48,835 nt of DNA from a virus (lineage: Duplodnaviria > Heunggongvirae > Uroviricota > Caudoviricetes), in the IMG/VR virus record IMGVR_UViG_2740892051_000004, positions 1 to 48,835 of that record; one strand, written 5' to 3'. A program made the position numbers and the translations under genes. Numbering within the stretch: position 1 is the stretch's first letter; every line of letters starts with the position of its first letter. This document shows, piece by piece, positions 16,002 to 34,481 of the stretch. A model generated the notes under the pieces. It did not search any database and was not told the DNA's origin. It worked only from the letters and a program-made list of their open reading frames with translations.

Positions 16002-16970
16002 TTAGTAGGTTATTTTTGTTGCGAATACTTCGCCTTTTACGATGGCTGTTATGATATTTTTAGCAACATCTTCTGATGCGCCAACCTTGATAAGGTCAGC
16101 AAGTATTTTGTTATTTACTTCTTTCCGGTGAGCTTTATCCTTTGCTCTACGCTCTTCTTCTTCCTTGATTCTTTTTTCTTCTGCTATTCTGGCTTGCTCT
16201 TTTGCTTCAGCCTCGCGCCGGATTCGTTCAGCCTCCTCCTGTGCTTTTCGGCGTTCTGCTTCAATTGCCGCCTGCTTTTCTCTTTCAGCTCGTTCTGCTG
16301 CCTCTTTTGCTTCGCGCTGTGCTCGTTGCTCGGCTTCAATGCGTTCACGCTCTGCACGTTCCGCTGCGGCCTTAGCTTCTGCTTCTCGCCTTGCTGCTGA
16401 TTCAATTTCGGCTTTTGCCTTTGCTTCGGCTTCTGCTCTGGCTTTCTCTTCAGCTTCTCTTTTTAAGCGTTCTTCATGCTCTCGCTTTTCCTGCTCCGCT
16501 TTGAGTCTTGCCTCTTCTCTTTGGCGGTCAAATTCGCGATCCATCAAAATAGCTATTTCATGATCAGACTCAATTTGCTTTGCGAGAGCTTCAGCTGCTG
16601 CCTTAGCTTCTTCTTCGGCTTTAATCCGCGCCTGTTCCTCCTCATAATCAGTAAGAGGCTGGCGAGCCTTGGCTTTCAGTTCATCAAGGCGATCGCGCAC
16701 TGTCTTGCGGTTGGCATCAATTAGCTTTGGAATTTCCTTCAGTTCAGCAACAAGGTCTTTGCCAAGACCATCGAGATATGTTTTCGTCTGCGCAACTTTA
16801 TACGCCAGAGAAGCGATCTCCTTTCTGCCCTTTGCCGTTGTGATATCAGGCACAAAGGACATAACTTCACGTTCAACCTTTTGAAGGATTTCTTCAATCT
16901 GGTCTGCAGACTGAAATACAGTCATTGCATTTGCTTTTTCAATAACAACTAAGTCTGTTACTTCACTCAT
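16002..16970 (-). CDS. charged coiled-coil protein with long KAE/R-rich region (function unknown)
   Basis: Start set at 'MSEVTDL' with GGAGG RBS; ~170 aa of EAK/ERA-rich low-complexity sequence. Confidence 0.6.
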   Translation of the reverse strand: MSEVTDLVVIEKANAMTVFQSADQIEEILQKVEREVMSFVPDITTAKGRKEIASLAYKVAQTKTYLDGLGKDLVAELKEIPKLIDANRKTVRDRLDELKAKARQPLTDYEEEQARIKAEEEAKAAAEALAKQIESDHEIAILMDREFDRQREEARLKAEQEKREHEERLKREAEEKARAEAEAKAKAEIESAARREAEAKAAAERAERERIEAEQRAQREAKEAAERAEREKQAAIEAERRKAQEEAERIRREAEAKEQARIAEEKRIKEEEERRAKDKAHRKEVNNKILADLIKVGASEDVAKNIITAIVKGEVFATKITY

Positions 16971-17071
16971 ATATCCTCCATCAAAAAAATTGCCCTCACA
17001 CTGGAGGGCAAAGAAGATTTCCAATAATCAGAACAAGTCGGCTCCTGTTTAGTTACGAGCGACATTGCTCC

Positions 17072-17099
17072 GTGTATTCACTCGTTGGAATGAATACAC
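17072..17099. promoter_or_regulatory. 9-bp inverted repeat upstream of sieB-like gene
   Basis: GTGTATTCA-N10-TGAATACAC. Confidence 0.3.
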
Positions 17100-17225
17100 A
17101 GTGCAGTGTTTATTAGTATGCCTGTCTTTTAACCACATCAGGCTCGGTGGTTCTCGTGTACCCCTACAGCGAGAAATCGGATAAACTCTATTCACCCCTA
17201 CAGAGAGAATGATGGAGATTCACCG

Positions 17226-17765
17226 ATGAGTAACTGGTGGCAGGAACTATTACGTTTCTTCCTGCGTGGTCTTACGCTACAACAGTTAATTCATATGCTT
17301 ATTATTTTAATTGCCTTGATAATAATCACCCCAGCATCAATTAAAGAGTGGGTAGATATAAGGAACCCCGAAATACTTCCAGATCACTGGATGTATTACG
17401 CAATGCTTTTGTGTATCAGTTATGTTCTGAACAGGGTGATGGAGTTTATATTTCTGGCATCTTCAGACAGATATAAAAAATATCTCAGTAAGAGAGATGA
17501 GGCTAAAGTAATTGTGGAGACTGAGAGCCTATTCAATTCTCTGAGTATTCAGGAAAAAGAGGTTTTAGCATTTGCTGTTATGGCAAATAACAAAATCGTA
17601 CTTAAGCACGGCGATCCGGTCGCTTTATCTCTTATGAGAAAAGGCCTTCTCCATCGCTCAGGTGTGACTTACAGCGCGTCAGGTAAAGAGAAATTTGTTA
17701 TACCTGACGTCTGGTTCCATGAGTGTTATATGCGCTTTGCTGGTAAAGCTGATGAGCTAATTTAG
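17226..17765 (+). CDS. sieB: SieB-like superinfection exclusion membrane protein
   Basis: 179 aa; N-terminus 'MSNWWQELLRFFL' and TM segment 'LIHMLIILIALIIITPA' fit recalled SieB family; located between cIII and N. Confidence 0.5.
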   Translation: MSNWWQELLRFFLRGLTLQQLIHMLIILIALIIITPASIKEWVDIRNPEILPDHWMYYAMLLCISYVLNRVMEFIFLASSDRYKKYLSKRDEAKVIVETESLFNSLSIQEKEVLAFAVMANNKIVLKHGDPVALSLMRKGLLHRSGVTYSASGKEKFVIPDVWFHECYMRFAGKADELI

Positions 17766-17787
17766 TTCCTCGACGGCGGGGGGATCG

Positions 17788-18060
17788 TCACCTCGCCGTC
17801 AGTTGTTTTGATTTCCGGTAGCCTGCCGCGTAAATAGCTACGTTTGGCAGGCAAATACTTCCACTGCATTCATCTGCCTTCTTGCAGCAAAGGCTTCCTA
17901 GTGATGCTGCTTTGTCTGCTCTGACGCAACCAGAGAGCTTTAGCGCAATTTTTCGCGCCAGTGCTTCATTACTGCGTCGCTCGGCAATAAGTTCTGCTCT
18001 GCGAGCTTTGTAGCGGCTTTTTGCCGTACCTTTGGATTCTTTCCAGACAATGGTTACCAT
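17788..18060 (-). CDS. N: antitermination protein N (phage 21/P22 type)
   Basis: Start at 'MVTIVWKESKG'; arginine-rich motif 'SRYKARRAELIAERR'; C-terminus 'YAAGYRKSKQLTAR'. Confidence 0.75.
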   Translation of the reverse strand: MVTIVWKESKGTAKSRYKARRAELIAERRSNEALARKIALKLSGCVRADKAASLGSLCCKKADECSGSICLPNVAIYAAGYRKSKQLTAR

Positions 18061-18170
18061 GATGGTCTCCTTTAAGTGGCTTTGGCGCATGACGCGTCGA
18101 GGTGCTTATCTTCTCGATCGCTGTCTTGCAGCTGCAATTCGCGCCATCCCCAAAACCACTCAAGTTCTGG

Positions 18171-18212
18171 TCTCAACGGTTAGGTTGAGAGTCCGTCGAT
18201 GTTAAAGAGCCT
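18171..18212 (-). promoter_or_regulatory. nutL (boxA + boxB)
   Basis: Minus strand GCTCTTTAACA boxA followed by TCTCAAC-CTAACC-GTTGAGA hairpin; same CTAACC loop recurs in nutR. Confidence 0.5.
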
Positions 18213-18249
18213 GCCAATCTGTTCCGTTTGGCTTCCAGCGTCCTGCTGA

Positions 18250-18330
18250 TGGCTTAAATTTAAGACTTCTTAATTTATTGGTCAAGTGCATTTTTGAAGA
18301 AAACTTAATTTTATGGACGTGAATTTAGTT
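18250..18330 (-). promoter_or_regulatory. OL operators / pL region
   Basis: TTAAGA..TCTTAA palindromes shared with OR; TTGACC -35-like on minus strand. Confidence 0.4.
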
Positions 18331-18350
18331 TGTCTTTGATTTTTAACGGG

Positions 18351-18374
18351 AAATAAAAAAGGGGCGAAAGCCCC
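18351..18374 (-). terminator. rho-independent terminator at end of cI
   Basis: GGGGC-tttc-GCCCC hairpin followed by T-run on minus strand. Confidence 0.55.
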
Positions 18375-19025
18375 TTAAGGAAGGTTTGCTAGCTTGGCAT
18401 CAACGACAACGCCAATGATTTTACAGTTCCCATTGATTTCAATCATTGGGTATTGTGGATTGAGTGGTTTCAGGAATTTTCTACCGGCATCAATAACTAA
18501 CTTTTTGAATGTCGCCTCGTTTTCTCCTTCAAGTTTGGCGACTACCAGCTTTCCATTACGTGGTTCGACTTCTGGGTCGACGAGAATAATCATCCCCTCA
18601 GGAATACTCAGTCCTGCCGGGGCAGTCATTGAATCGCCTTTAACGTCGAGCCAAAAAGAGTCTTCAGAACAATCTACCGTTGTGTCGTACCAGTTATCTA
18701 TTGCACGCCTATGATATGGCTCTACAGCTTCCATCCAACATCCTGCGCTTACCCAACTAATTAGAGGATACGAACCTCTTGGATCATGCCTGCTGTGATA
18801 GGCAATGTTTGAAAGACTATCCTCTCCTTTCAACAGGTAATCAGGGGAGCACTGCAAAGCCTTGGCTAAGGCCAATAGGTTTTCGCCATTGGGCTCAGTT
18901 TCAGATCGCTCCCATTGGGAAATAGCAACATTAGACACGCCAACCATCTTGCCAAGGGCAGCCTGCCTAATCTTGAGTTCTTTTCTGCGAGCGCGAATAC
19001 GCTCACCCATCAGTTGTGTATTCAT
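18375..19025 (-). CDS. cI: CI-type repressor (HTH + S24 LexA-like peptidase)
   Basis: N-terminal HTH 'LKIRQAALGKMVGVSNVAISQWE'; 'SAG' cleavage region; 'KGDSM' Ser and 'KLVVAK' Lys dyad. Confidence 0.85.
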   Translation of the reverse strand: MNTQLMGERIRARRKELKIRQAALGKMVGVSNVAISQWERSETEPNGENLLALAKALQCSPDYLLKGEDSLSNIAYHSRHDPRGSYPLISWVSAGCWMEAVEPYHRRAIDNWYDTTVDCSEDSFWLDVKGDSMTAPAGLSIPEGMIILVDPEVEPRNGKLVVAKLEGENEATFKKLVIDAGRKFLKPLNPQYPMIEINGNCKIIGVVVDAKLANLP

Positions 19026-33569: not shown

Positions 33570-34463
33570 ATGGACCAGATGGCAGAAAACACACCAGAAG
33601 TTGAAATCGAAACCGACGCGTCAGAGCAGATTCCTGATGATGTCGAACTGGCTGAAGAAGTCGAAACAGAAGATGGCAGTGAGTCCTCCGGCAATGATGC
33701 AGAGGAAGCTACTGAAACTGATGACGACGAATCAGAACAGGAATTCTACTTTGGTGACGAAAAGCTGGATTCGCCAACCAGCGAAGATGGCGCAGAGCAT
33801 GGACTGGTAAAACACCTGCGCAAGACGATTAAAGAGAAAGACCGCGAGCTGAAAGAGCTGATGCGTCAGTCTCAGAAACCCGTCGAGCAGCAGCCGGTAA
33901 TCACTCAACCACCGCGAATGCCAAAACTGGATGATGAGGACATCGGTTTCGATGAAGAAATCTATCAGCAACGTATGGCTAAGTGGGCAGAGGAAAACGG
34001 CAAATACCAGGAGCAAGTACGAGAGCGGAAACGAGAGGAAGAGGCGCGTACCGCAACGCTTCAGCAGAAAGCAGCCAATTACATGCAGAGAGTAAAAGCA
34101 CTGAAAGTGGCTGGCTACCAGGATGCAGAGCAGGCTGTACGCGAAGATGTTCCTGTTCATATTCAGGACATGATCCTTCTTGAGTCAGAGAAGCCGGAAA
34201 TCGTTGTTCTGGCGCTCGGCCGCAACGCTGAACTGCGCAAGCAACTGGCAGAAGCTACCAACCCCGTAGCAATTGGTCGTCTGCTGGAACGTATCGAATC
34301 GAAGGCCAGAATCATGCCAAAAGCAAAAACCACGGCAGCCACAACCCCGACAGTTAAGGGGAGCAACGGCGCAGTAATCAATAACCTCGACAAACTGAAA
34401 GCCAAGGCGCTGGAAACTGGTGACTGGACGCCGTATTTCGCCGCTAAAAAGGCAAAAAAATAA
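33570..34463 (+). CDS. scaffolding protein
   Basis: 297 aa acidic/helical protein between portal and coat. Confidence 0.7.
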   Translation: MDQMAENTPEVEIETDASEQIPDDVELAEEVETEDGSESSGNDAEEATETDDDESEQEFYFGDEKLDSPTSEDGAEHGLVKHLRKTIKEKDRELKELMRQSQKPVEQQPVITQPPRMPKLDDEDIGFDEEIYQQRMAKWAEENGKYQEQVRERKREEEARTATLQQKAANYMQRVKALKVAGYQDAEQAVREDVPVHIQDMILLESEKPEIVVLALGRNAELRKQLAEATNPVAIGRLLERIESKARIMPKAKTTAATTPTVKGSNGAVINNLDKLKAKALETGDWTPYFAAKKAKK

Positions 34464-34481
34464 CCTATCGGAGCATTAAGC

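What the first reader, a model, noticed from the sequence alone, without database searches (positions are those of the whole stretch)
17040..17765. SieB-like exclusion gene with unusual upstream repeats
A plus-strand membrane protein resembling SieB (known abortive-infection/superinfection exclusion factor) lies opposite to the early-left operon. Its upstream region has a 9-bp inverted repeat (17072..17099) and two direct repeats CCCCTACAG(C/A)GAGAA (17161..17175, 17195..17209).
Basis: partly seen in the sequence, partly recalled or inferred. Interest (0 to 1): 0.4.

Follow-up and report, generated by a model that had tools for sequence, protein, structure and literature searches.

The report
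sieB exclusion gene with antisense-RNA control module
This is an ordinary lambdoid-phage sieB superinfection-exclusion gene, and its two upstream direct repeats belong to the conserved promoter/antisense-RNA module known from phage P22: one copy is the start of the sieB mRNA and the other sits in a hairpin of the antisense RNA that silences it.

Summary
The ORF at 17226-17765 (+) is a SieB-family protein (Pfam PF14163, 72.9 bits against a cut-off of 26; 49% identical to P22 SieB). It lies opposite the pL operon next to an N-like gene.

Both repeats are real. The direct repeat ACCCCTACAG[C/A]GAGAA (17160-17175 and 17194-17209) lies in a ~90-bp module that is nearly identical in lambda and P22. 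It overlaps the annotated P22 sieB promoter and the P22 sas antisense RNA, which contains both copies. It is kept in 78 of 80 SieB loci found by protein search.

New detail:
- Copy 2 begins at the predicted mRNA start.
- Copy 1 is the loop plus 5' arm of a minus-strand RNA hairpin (H1). All its non-Watson-Crick pairs are G-U on that strand.
- H1 is followed by an H-type pseudoknot whose two stems co-vary.
- The same architecture recurs before unrelated cargo genes with four other repeat sequences, and the two copies always match each other.

Best reading: RNA-RNA recognition of the mRNA 5' end by the antisense RNA.

The inverted repeat (17062-17109) belongs to a separate mosaic segment of the pL transcript and is not a sieB operator. 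This is a new member of a known system, with possibly unreported RNA structure.

The parts
17226..17765 (+). sieB coding sequence (179 aa, stop included)
   Evidence: ORF. Pfam PF14163 at 72.9 bits against a cut-off of 26. PHROG 1301 at E = 6e-94. 49% identity to P22 SieB, E = 9e-58. Hydrophobic segments at about residues 15-40 and 57-78.
17295..17765 (+). Nested in-frame Esc-equivalent reading frame, starting at Met24
   Evidence: The P22 record annotates Esc from the in-frame ATG in ...LIHM|LII..., 72 nt into sieB. The window has the same LIHMLII context, with ATG at 17295. All 63 SieB-type cargo proteins collected keep a Met at position 21-26. Translation from this start is inferred.
17157..17187 (+). 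sieB promoter, with -10 TAAACT at 17182-17187 and a predicted mRNA start near 17194
   Evidence: These 31 bases are identical to the P22 feature 'promoter; sieB RNA start site', L001:1539-1569. A -10-like hexamer is kept at this position in all cassette variants (TAAACT, TAAAAT, TATAAT and others). The generic promoter scan does not flag it, because the -35 is poor.
17160..17175 (.). Direct repeat copy 1, ACCCCTACAGCGAGAA
   Evidence: It lies inside hairpin H1 and overlaps the promoter's -35/spacer region.
17194..17209 (.). Direct repeat copy 2, ACCCCTACAGAGAGAA; predicted first 16 nt of the sieB mRNA
   Evidence: It begins 6 nt after the -10 hexamer. The gap is 5-7 nt in 32 of 37 cassette variants.
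17151..17175 (-). Hairpin H1 of the antisense RNA: UUCUCG-C-UGUA-GGGG-UACA-CGAGAA
   Evidence: Folds at -9.9 kcal/mol. Across homologues the non-Watson-Crick pairs are 16 G-U on the minus strand and 0 A-C. 92.4% of cells are paired. The region folds better on the minus strand in 53 of 55 variants. A GGGG-capped stem is present in all five motif classes.
17120..17152 (-). H-type pseudoknot PK. On the minus strand: AACCAC-cga-GCCUG-au-GUGGUU-aaaaga-CAGGC
   Evidence: Both stems can form in 23 of 25 distinct variants, with compensatory changes such as CCAC/GUGG to CCUCA/UGAGG, CGGGA/UCCCG and UCACG/CGUGA, and GCCUG/CAGGC to GCCGGG/CCCGGC. Loop lengths are 0-3, 0-2 and 5-10 nt, the last A-rich. 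Pair counts beat the shuffled and slid controls. The two outermost pairs (17151-17152) compete with H1.
17120..17230 (-). Predicted sas-type antisense RNA: complement of the sieB start codon, ribosome-binding site and 5' UTR, then H1, then PK
   Evidence: The window matches P22 at 91.5% over 17119-17235. The P22 sas RNA seen by RNA-seq (P22 11513 to 11387, minus strand) covers the start codon, both repeat copies and PK. PK ends at nucleotide 110 of that RNA, and sas is listed as 105 nt. The ends in this phage are inferred.
17213..17216 (+). Shine-Dalgarno GGAG of sieB
   Evidence: Read from the sequence, 9 nt before the ATG.
17062..17109 (-).
   Evidence: On the minus strand 20 of 22 positions pair, 2 of them G-U; on the plus strand 18 of 22 pair. 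It is nearly invariant in 53 loci. The lambda copy (core arms at 34013-34021 and 34032-34040) lies on the far side of ral from sieB.
16990..17011 (-). Intrinsic terminator hairpin followed by a U run (the tL2A equivalent)
   Evidence: Found by the terminator scan. The homologous HK620 sequence is annotated 'tL2A'. The lambda equivalent is at 33933-33950.
17788..18090 (-). N-like antiterminator gene, convergent with sieB (context)
   Evidence: Pfam PF25694 N_peptide at 59.9 bits; PHROG 271.

Best explanation
The locus is a sieB/esc superinfection-exclusion gene with the regulatory module described for phage P22.

How it works:
1. Rightward transcription starts from a weak constitutive promoter (-10 TAAACT at 17182-17187, start near 17194). 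It gives an mRNA whose first 16 nt are repeat copy 2. The mRNA encodes SieB, and from Met24 the shorter Esc-type antagonist.
2. Leftward pL transcription from an induced or superinfecting phage runs antisense through sieB. It yields a sas-type RNA (about 17230 to 17120). Its 5' part is complementary to the first ~36 nt of the mRNA, including the ribosome-binding site and start codon. SieB initiation is blocked while Esc initiation continues.
3. The 3' domain of this RNA is hairpin H1 followed by an H-type pseudoknot.
4. Repeat copy 1 is the GGGG loop plus the 5' arm of H1. The antisense RNA therefore also presents, in a hairpin, a second complement of the mRNA's extreme 5' end.

I propose that H1 captures the C-rich mRNA 5' end, as the RNA-OUT loop captures the 5' end of RNA-IN in IS10. 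I propose that the pseudoknot defines or stabilises the 3' end of the antisense RNA.

Shown here: gene family, homology to the P22 promoter/sas region, the structures and their strand, and the co-variation of the two copies.

Inferred: transcription ends in this phage, the Esc switch, and the recognition role of H1.

Sub-confidences: sieB/esc + promoter + sas homologue 0.85; minus-strand H1 and pseudoknot 0.75; H1 as recognition element 0.4.
For: - SieB family membership.
- The 31-bp promoter is identical to the annotated P22 sieB promoter.
- The P22 sas RNA sequence from RNA-seq contains CUGUAGGGG twice, followed by the pseudoknot sequence. sas is listed as 105 nt, and PK ends at nucleotide 110 of the RNA-seq species.
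- Repeats are kept in 78 of 80 protein-anchored SieB loci. One is in Yersinia and one in Phytobacter.
- H1: 16 G-U against 0 A-C on the minus strand. The minus strand folds better in 53 of 55 variants.
- Structure test on 25 variants: 94.7% of cells paired against at most 49.8% when the partners are slid; 5 pairs with changes on both sides (1 of 500 shuffles reach this). Both pseudoknot stems have several compensatory variants and canonical loop lengths.
- Copy 2 starts 5-7 nt after the -10 in 32 of 37 variants.
- The same architecture occurs with four other repeat sequences (CCCCAATGCAA, TTCCACAGTCAA, TCCCCAACAAC, CCCCCACAA). The two copies match within each cassette: 14 of 46 sequences against 0.24% of shuffles.
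- The motif is not tied to the cargo family. The PHROG 1244 family occurs with three motif classes, and CCCCTACAG occurs with SieB, PHROG 1244 and an 83-aa ORF.
- The mRNA 5' end is predicted to open H1 with a net gain of -9 to -19 kcal/mol in all six cassettes tested.
Against: - There are no RNA data for this phage. The transcript ends are carried over from P22.
- I could not read the primary P22 papers. Whether sas is processed from pL or has its own promoter is unconfirmed.
- The contiguous 5' part of the antisense RNA already pairs perfectly with the mRNA (-54 kcal/mol). A second hairpin-presented complement looks redundant and could even compete with it.
- The complementarity of H1 to the mRNA follows from the DNA repeat by construction, so one search is not independent evidence.
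- Whole-region folding energies do not differ from shuffles (z = -0.14 and -0.57).
- A second hairpin around copy 2 is not consistently conserved.
- The variants are related and partly selected through the motif itself.
- The strand of the pseudoknot is not fixed by G-U asymmetry. It rests on loop geometry and on the fact that the inferred plus-strand starts lie downstream of it.
- The G-rich minus strand may fold better partly because of its composition.
Confidence: 0.55

Rival explanations
1. The two direct repeats are DNA operator sites. A regulator protein binds both copies, which flank the -10 hexamer 34 bp apart, and so controls sieB transcription.
For: - The copies bracket the -10 element at a constant 33-35 bp spacing.
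- Copy 1 overlaps the -35/spacer region of a promoter with a poor -35, which might need a factor.
- Co-variation of the two copies is also what two sites for one protein would show.
Against: - The same CCCCTACAG motif is shared by lambda, a lambda carrying the phage 434 immunity region, P22, HK620 and this window. These phages have different repressors and N proteins.
- The motif class does not follow the cargo protein family.
- The motif occurs nowhere else in the window.
- Phages of the same hosts use different motifs, which argues against a host factor.
- Copy 1 is embedded in a stem whose exceptions are all G-U on the minus strand. This is an RNA signature that a DNA site does not explain.
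Confidence: 0.12
2. The repeat has no function of its own. It is the scar of a short tandem duplication or of module exchange that moved a promoter in front of the cargo. H1 and the pseudoknot act only as a 3' stabiliser or end-defining structure of the antisense RNA.
For: - Some pseudoknot-linked cassettes have no repeat. In them the hairpin's 5' arm is the -10 (TGgTATCCT) and its 3' arm is the Shine-Dalgarno sequence. The repeat cassettes look like a 34-bp expansion of that design.
- In the TTCCACAGTCAA class the similarity between the two units extends beyond the core (AGGAA...TATG).
- The contiguous antisense part is sufficient for pairing.
Against: - The core is kept in 78 of 80 loci, while the 24-bp spacer and the flanks diverge widely.
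- Five different motif sequences each keep two matching copies at the same position and spacing.
- The commonest change in copy 1 (G to A, CCCCTACAAC) falls on the bulged base of H1 and leaves the pairing intact.
Confidence: 0.2
3. H1 and the pseudoknot act in cis on the pL transcript, as a processing, pause or termination signal or as an insulator for downstream genes. Copy 2, being identical to the 5' arm of H1, serves as an alternative pairing partner for the 3' arm of H1. The fold would then depend on whether copy 2 is occupied by sieB mRNA.
For: - In the minus-strand RNA the two copies are identical, so both can pair with the 3' arm of H1.
- The module is a discrete mosaic unit bounded exactly at the pseudoknot edge and after copy 2, lying within the pL operon.
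- The pseudoknot also occurs next to cassettes with no repeat.
Against: - No U tract follows H1 or the pseudoknot, so this is not an intrinsic terminator.
- One of the two copies is always free, so no obvious on/off switch results.
- I found no experimental hint for such a function.
Confidence: 0.1

Closest known systems
Phage P22 sieB / esc / sas system (Ranade and Poteete 1993; P22 records OQ031658 and AF217253)
   Same: - Same gene family and same genomic position, convergent with gene 24/N.
- SieB is 49% identical.
- The nested Met start is conserved.
- The 31-bp promoter is identical.
- The region that is the sas antisense RNA in P22 is 91.5% identical, including both repeat copies, H1 and the pseudoknot.
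   Different: - The SieB allele differs (179 against 192 aa).
- The ribosome-binding region between copy 2 and the ATG differs.
- The left flank differs: the module abuts the ral-distal hairpin segment directly, with no ral gene.
- The hairpin/pseudoknot reading of the repeats is my inference. I did not find it in the literature I could read.
Phage lambda sieB (lambda 34.4-35.0 kb)
   Same: The upstream module is nearly identical: pseudoknot at lambda 34397-34420, repeats at 34438-34446 and 34472-34480. The position next to N is the same.
   Different: The lambda SieB protein shows no pairwise similarity to the window protein (E = 0.11); both match only the Pfam profile. In lambda the ATG follows copy 2 almost directly. 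In lambda ral separates the module from the inverted-repeat segment.
IS10 RNA-OUT / RNA-IN antisense control (from my own knowledge of the system)
   Same: It works alike in principle. A stable antisense stem-loop has a loop and 5' stem side complementary to the extreme 5' end of an mRNA, with an overlap of ~36 nt that covers the ribosome-binding site.
   Different: There is no sequence relation. Here the hairpin-presented complement (H1) is a second copy created by a DNA direct repeat, separate from the contiguous antisense segment. The antisense RNA probably derives from a long operon transcript and ends in a pseudoknot.
HK620 hkaP cassette (PHROG 1244, 'putative superinfection exclusion protein')
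   Same: Same pseudoknot, H1, -10 and second-copy module, with the same CCCCTACAG repeat, at the same genomic position.
   Different: The cargo protein is unrelated: a coiled-coil protein with a C-terminal CxxC...CxxC motif and no Pfam family.

Membership tests
SieB superinfection-exclusion protein (Pfam PF14163) | Profile match above the curated threshold | tested here: met
   72.9 bits against a cut-off of 26, E = 2.7e-20, residues 23-154. PHROG 1301 at E = 6.4e-94. 49% identity to P22 SieB over 178 aa.
SieB superinfection-exclusion protein (Pfam PF14163) | Small protein with hydrophobic N-terminal membrane segments | tested here: met
   179 aa. Kyte-Doolittle 19-residue windows exceed 1.6 at about residues 11-45 and 59-78.
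SieB superinfection-exclusion protein (Pfam PF14163) | Position in the lambdoid early-left region, transcribed against pL, adjacent to N/gene 24 | tested here: met
   N-like gene at 18090-17788 (-), cI-like gene at 19025-18375 (-), cro-like and cII-like ORFs to the right (read from their positions and sequences), pL-operon genes to the left. Same order as in P22 and lambda.
SieB superinfection-exclusion protein (Pfam PF14163) | Aborts lytic growth of superinfecting phages | not testable with these tools
   This is a phenotype. No PADLOC or NCBIfam model matches the protein.
P22-type Esc (nested antagonist of SieB) | In-frame internal start about 24 codons into sieB | tested here: met
   Met24 (ATG at 17295) in the same LIHMLII context as the annotated P22 Esc start. 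Kept in 63 of 63 SieB cargo proteins. Actual initiation was not tested.
P22 sas antisense RNA | Minus-strand sequence covering the sieB start codon, ribosome-binding site and 5' UTR, homologous to P22 sas | tested here: met
   91.5% identity to P22 over window 17119-17235. The P22 RNA-seq sas sequence aligns with this stretch, both repeats and the pseudoknot.
P22 sas antisense RNA | A discrete ~105-nt RNA is made and switches translation from SieB to Esc | not testable with these tools
   RNA evidence exists only for P22. No expression data are available for this window.
Any curated RNA family (Rfam 15) | Covariance-model match at or near the gathering score | tested here: not met
   In 16800-18500 the best matches have E of 1.6 or more and lie far below the gathering scores. 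None lies on H1 or the pseudoknot.
H-type RNA pseudoknot | Two interleaved stems, each kept by compensatory changes, with loop lengths that allow the fold | tested here: met
   Stem A has 7 or more sequence variants and stem B has 5. Both form in 23 of 25 variants. Loops are 0-3, 0-2 and 5-10 nt (A-rich) on the minus strand. Helices 2 and 3 are 94.8% and 99.2% paired, with changes on both sides. A pair of mutually exclusive hairpins is not excluded.
IS10 RNA-OUT-like recognition (mechanistic analogy, not membership) | The antisense hairpin's loop and 5' stem side are complementary to the first nucleotides of the target mRNA | tested here: inconclusive
   The complementarity is present in all five motif classes and pairing is predicted to be favourable. 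However, the mRNA start is inferred from the P22 annotation and the -10 position, and no pairing kinetics are available.
Protein-bound operator pair | The motif class tracks a candidate regulator (repressor, N or cargo protein) | tested here: not met
   The same motif occurs with different immunity regions and cargo families, and one cargo family occurs with three motifs. There are no further copies in the window.
Intrinsic terminator (tL2a equivalent) at 17011-16990 | G+C-rich hairpin followed by a U run on the transcribed strand | tested here: met
   TTGCCCTCCAGTGTGAGGGCAA followed by TTTTTTT on the minus strand. The homologous HK620 feature is annotated tL2A.

The most novel reading that the evidence does not exclude
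The ~90-bp module is a portable two-strand control cassette and an unannotated RNA family, consisting of a GGGG-capped hairpin plus an H-type pseudoknot. Lambdoid phages would place it in front of interchangeable exclusion or 'moron' genes. One strand carries the cargo promoter. The other strand gives the 3' scaffold of an antisense RNA made only when the phage grows lytically.

The co-varying repeat would be an address code that matches the scaffold hairpin to the first nucleotides of the cargo mRNA. The five or more motif classes would be specificity groups. A superinfecting phage of the same class might then also silence a resident prophage's exclusion gene in trans, even when the genes themselves differ.
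Probability: 0.3. Interest if true: 0.65.

Novelty: new member of a known kind. Interest (0 to 1): 0.42.

Why it matters
SieB is one of the oldest known prophage-encoded abortive-infection functions, and how phages avoid killing themselves with it is known only for P22. The analysis shows three things:
- The control module is far better conserved than the genes it controls. It is nearly identical in lambda, P22 and this phage, although their SieB proteins are 49% identical or unalignable.
- It is present, without annotation under any of the matches listed, in 988 of 5426 complete E. coli genomes.
- It is reused before unrelated cargo genes.

If the hairpin/repeat reading is right, it gives a concrete, testable rule for how a phage couples lytic growth to shut-off of its own exclusion genes. 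It also gives a handle for finding new exclusion genes by looking to the right of the pseudoknot.

Tried and rejected
- Rfam scan of 16800-18500 at a permissive threshold: only chance-level hits, none on the module.
- Whole-region minimum-free-energy folds of either strand do not differ from shuffles. Thermodynamics alone does not support a structure; the case rests on comparative data.
- A second hairpin around copy 2 (CUCU/AGAG): the pairing register differs between variants and only about half the cells pair. I rejected it as a conserved element.
- A minus-strand promoter for the antisense RNA inside the 5' end of sieB: the scan found none in the window, and I saw none on reading the P22 sequence. 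I therefore assume processing from pL, which is unconfirmed.
The narrower P22-type alignment gave only 3 loci in genome contigs and 80 in viral contigs.
- The primary paper on sas (Genes Dev 1993) is not held in the library. Literature searches for tL1/sieB and for a lambdoid hotspot found nothing relevant.
- PADLOC and NCBIfam have no model for this protein or for the alternative cargo proteins.
- The inverted repeat at 17062-17109 is almost invariant in 53 loci, so its covariation could not be assessed.
- I considered and rejected the idea that the repeat motif is tied to the cargo protein or to the immunity type.
Full report
**Observation.** The window between 16.9 and 18.1 kb reads as a lambdoid early-left region.
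- An N-like antiterminator gene lies at 18090-17788 (-) (Pfam N_peptide, 59.9 bits).
- To its right are a cI-like repressor gene (19025-18375, -) and cro-like and cII-like ORFs.
- To its left is a 323/340-aa gene of the pL operon (16973-16002, -).
- Between them, on the opposite strand, lies the ORF 17226-17765 (179 aa).
- The direct repeat is real: ACCCCTACAGCGAGAA at 17160-17175 and ACCCCTACAGAGAGAA at 17194-17209, 34 bp apart.
- The 9-bp inverted repeat is exact and is the core of a 22-nt-arm imperfect palindrome, 17062-17083 with 17088-17109.
- CCCCTACAG occurs only at these two places in the window.

**The gene.** The protein matches Pfam SieB (PF14163, 72.9 bits against a cut-off of 26) and PHROG 1301 (E = 6e-94). 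It is 49% identical to P22 SieB over its whole length (E = 9e-58). It shows no pairwise similarity to lambda SieB, although lambda SieB matches the same Pfam profile. It has hydrophobic N-terminal segments. It keeps the internal Met24 (ATG at 17295) in the same LIHMLII context where the P22 record annotates the nested Esc protein. All 63 SieB-type proteins I collected keep such a Met. PADLOC and NCBIfam hold no model for it.

**The upstream region is two mosaic segments.** A distant BLAST of 17025-17240 against phage records splits the region.
- Segment 17025-17114 holds the inverted repeat. It is 98-100% identical in hundreds of lambdoid phages. In lambda the repeat's core arms lie at 34013-34021 and 34032-34040, on the far side of ral from sieB.
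- This segment lies just upstream, in the pL direction, of an intrinsic terminator hairpin (17011-16990). The homologous HK620 feature is annotated tL2A.
- The palindrome folds well (-24.9 kcal/mol, z = -6.3 on the minus strand). It pairs at 20 of 22 positions on the minus strand and 18 of 22 on the plus strand. It is almost invariant, so covariation cannot be assessed.
- It is best read as an RNA hairpin of the pL transcript of unknown role, not as part of sieB control.
- Segment 17119-17235 holds the direct repeats. It is the stretch shared with P22 and lambda directly upstream of sieB.

**Known annotation of that segment.**
- The P22virB-3 record annotates a 31-bp 'promoter; sieB RNA start site'. 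The window is identical to it at 17157-17187, ending in the -10 hexamer TAAACT.
- A 2026 RNA-seq paper lists the P22 sas antisense RNA as P22 11513 to 11387 on the minus strand (PMC13397905).
- Its printed sequence begins at the complement of the sieB start codon. It contains CUGUAGGGG twice and continues through CCACCGAGCCUGACGUGGUUAAAAGACAGGC.
- A review lists sas as 105 nt (PMC12197685). The last stem ends at nucleotide 110 of the RNA-seq species.
- Both repeat copies are therefore part of a known antisense RNA. That RNA inhibits SieB synthesis while Esc synthesis continues.
- I could not read the primary paper.

**Are the repeats conserved?** I retrieved SieB loci by protein similarity only. 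This gave 80 loci with enough upstream sequence and 36 distinct upstream sequences. One locus is in Yersinia pekkanenii and one in Phytobacter.
- Both exact copies are present in 66 loci.
- One exact copy and one single-mismatch copy are present in 12 loci.
- Of the remaining two, one has a single mismatch in each copy and one has a replaced upstream region.
- The commonest change (CCCCTACAAC in copy 1) falls on the bulged base of the hairpin described below.

**What the repeats are.**
- In all variants a -10-like hexamer (TAAACT, TAAAAT, TATAAT, TAATAT and others) sits between the copies, while the rest of the spacer diverges.
- Copy 2 begins 5-7 nt after that hexamer in 32 of 37 variants, which is the expected transcription start.
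- Copy 1 lies inside an inverted repeat, TTCTCG-TGTA-CCCC-TACA-g-CGAGAA (17151-17175).
- Across homologues every departure from Watson-Crick pairing in this stem is a G-U pair on the minus strand: 16 G-U against 0 A-C.
- The region folds better on the minus strand in 53 of 55 variants.
- H1 is therefore an RNA hairpin of the leftward transcript, a stem capped by a GGGG loop. Copy 1 corresponds to its loop plus the loop-proximal 5' arm.

**A pseudoknot next to H1.** To the left of H1, two interleaved stems both show compensatory changes.
- Stem A changes from AACCAC/GUGGUU to CCACG/CGUGG, UCACG/CGUGA, CGGGA/UCCCG and AACCUCA/UGAGGUU.
- Stem B changes from GCCUG/CAGGC to GCCGGG/CCCGGC, GCCUGA/UCAGGC and CGCCUG/CAGGCG.
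- Both stems form in 23 of 25 distinct variants. On the minus strand the loops are 0-3, 0-2 and 5-10 nt, the last A-rich, which is the usual H-type geometry.
- On the alignment of 25 variants, 94.7% of cells pair, against at most 49.8% when the partners are slid. Five pairs change on both sides (reached in 1 of 500 shuffles). The covariation score is 0.145 against 0.090 (reached in 0 of 500 shuffles).
- G-U asymmetry does not decide the strand here. The inferred plus-strand starts lie downstream of the pseudoknot, so it should be transcribed only leftward.
- No Rfam family matches.

**The module is reused, and the two copies co-vary.**
- A scan anchored only on the pseudoknot found it next to many different rightward cassettes.
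- Some have the window's layout (pseudoknot, H1, -10, second copy, ribosome-binding site, ATG) but another repeated sequence: CCCCAATGCAA, TTCCACAGTCAA, TCCCCAACAAC or CCCCCACAA. Position and spacing (33-35 bp) are the same, and the two copies match within each cassette.
- Among 46 distinct downstream sequences lacking CCCTACA, 14 have such a repeat, against 0.24% of shuffles.
- The cargo differs: several SieB subfamilies, the unrelated PHROG 1244 family (HK620 HkaP), and small ORFs.
- PHROG 1244 occurs with three motif classes, and CCCCTACAG occurs with three cargo types. The motif is therefore not tied to the cargo protein.
- It is not tied to the immunity type either. Lambda, a lambda carrying the phage 434 immunity region, P22, HK620 and this window share it.
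- Other cassettes have no repeat. There the hairpin's 5' arm supplies an extended -10 (TGgTATCCT) and its 3' arm supplies the Shine-Dalgarno sequence. The mRNA would then start in the hairpin loop. This promoter reading is my inference.

**Mechanism.**
- The part resting on P22 knowledge and homology: a weak constitutive promoter makes sieB mRNA. Leftward pL transcription gives an antisense RNA that covers the first ~36 nt of that mRNA. The predicted duplex gain is -54 kcal/mol. This blocks SieB initiation but not Esc initiation.
- The part I add: the antisense RNA has a structured 3' domain of H1 plus pseudoknot.
- H1 displays a second complement of the mRNA's first 10-16 nt, with the GGGG loop facing the 5'-terminal CCCC. 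In principle this resembles the loop-to-5'-end pairing of IS10 RNA-OUT and RNA-IN.
- Predicted invasion of H1 by the mRNA 5' end is favourable in all six cassettes tested (-9 to -19 kcal/mol). That follows from the repeat itself and is not independent evidence.
- The co-variation of the copies and the fixed link of copy 2 to the transcription start are the real arguments.
- The weak point is redundancy with the contiguous antisense segment.
- Rivals are listed with their tests: a protein operator pair, a functionless duplication scar, and a cis role of H1 and the pseudoknot in pL transcript processing.

**Prevalence and novelty.**
- The module occurs in 988 of 5426 complete E. coli genomes. 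None of the 12 sampled matches shown has an RNA or other non-coding feature annotated under the module.
- The locus is a new member of the known sieB/esc/sas system.
- I did not find the hairpin/pseudoknot structure, the co-varying repeat or the reuse before other cargo genes in the literature I could search. I cannot exclude that the 1993 papers describe parts of it.

Noticed in passing
Loci L127, L131, L134, L146, L148, L150, L155, L156, L161, L167, L168, L202, L203, L210, L226 (downstream of the pseudoknot match in each): Cassettes with the window's architecture but other repeated motifs (CCCCAATGCAA, TTCCACAGTCAA, TCCCCAA[CT]AAC, CCCCCACAA). The two copies match within each cassette, and the cargo genes are mostly small and uncharacterised.
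   Followed up: partly
Loci L128, L136, L137, L173, L188, L207, L208, L223: Pseudoknot-linked cassettes without a repeat. A perfect hairpin follows the pseudoknot directly. Its 5' arm with the pseudoknot end reads TGgTATCCT (extended -10-like) and its 3' arm holds the Shine-Dalgarno sequence. The cargo is a 55-106-aa protein, several with zinc-ribbon motifs. In two of these hairpins (L188, L223) my manual reading of the sequences places a G-U pair on the plus strand.
   Followed up: partly
L126:1435-1929 (HK620 hkaP), and L023, L024, L037, L060, L064, L104: An unrelated protein family (PHROG 1244) occupies the sieB position behind the same module. It has an N-terminal coiled-coil-like region and a C-terminal CxxC...CxxC motif, with no Pfam or PADLOC match. 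This makes it a candidate exclusion gene of unknown mechanism.
   Followed up: partly
window 16002-16973 (-): A 323-aa gene of the pL operon encodes a very Glu/Ala/Lys/Arg-rich, repetitive protein (PHROG 1376, function unknown; no Pfam or NCBIfam match). A homologue is labelled 'TolA' in one phage record.
   Followed up: no
window 17771-17815 (+): Inverted repeat GACGGCG...CGCCGTC followed by AGTTGTTTTGATTT, between the convergent sieB and N-like genes. It may be a terminator for sieB. The scan does not flag it because the loop is long.
   Followed up: no
L244 (upstream of its sieB): One SieB locus has the whole module replaced by unrelated sequence containing a palindrome, TATCACTTAAATAAGTGATA, that looks like an operator. 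SieB would then have a different control region.
   Followed up: no
L231 (Phytobacter), upstream of sieB: Both repeats and H1 are intact, but one pseudoknot stem cannot form (ACCGGGCCAGGCTCTCG). This is the only clear loss of the pseudoknot among the distinct variants.
   Followed up: no
L070, L026, L014/L116: CCCCTACAG also occurs in unrelated contigs, as part of longer tandem arrays (for example GTTGTAGGGGTTTCCCCTACAGAAGAAAATAGGGG repeated). These are unrelated to the lambdoid module and were excluded from the counts.
   Followed up: no
window 17115-17230, against complete E. coli genomes: The module matches 988 of 5426 complete E. coli genomes. In the matches listed, the only feature annotated under it is the start of sieB; no RNA feature is annotated.
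   Followed up: partly
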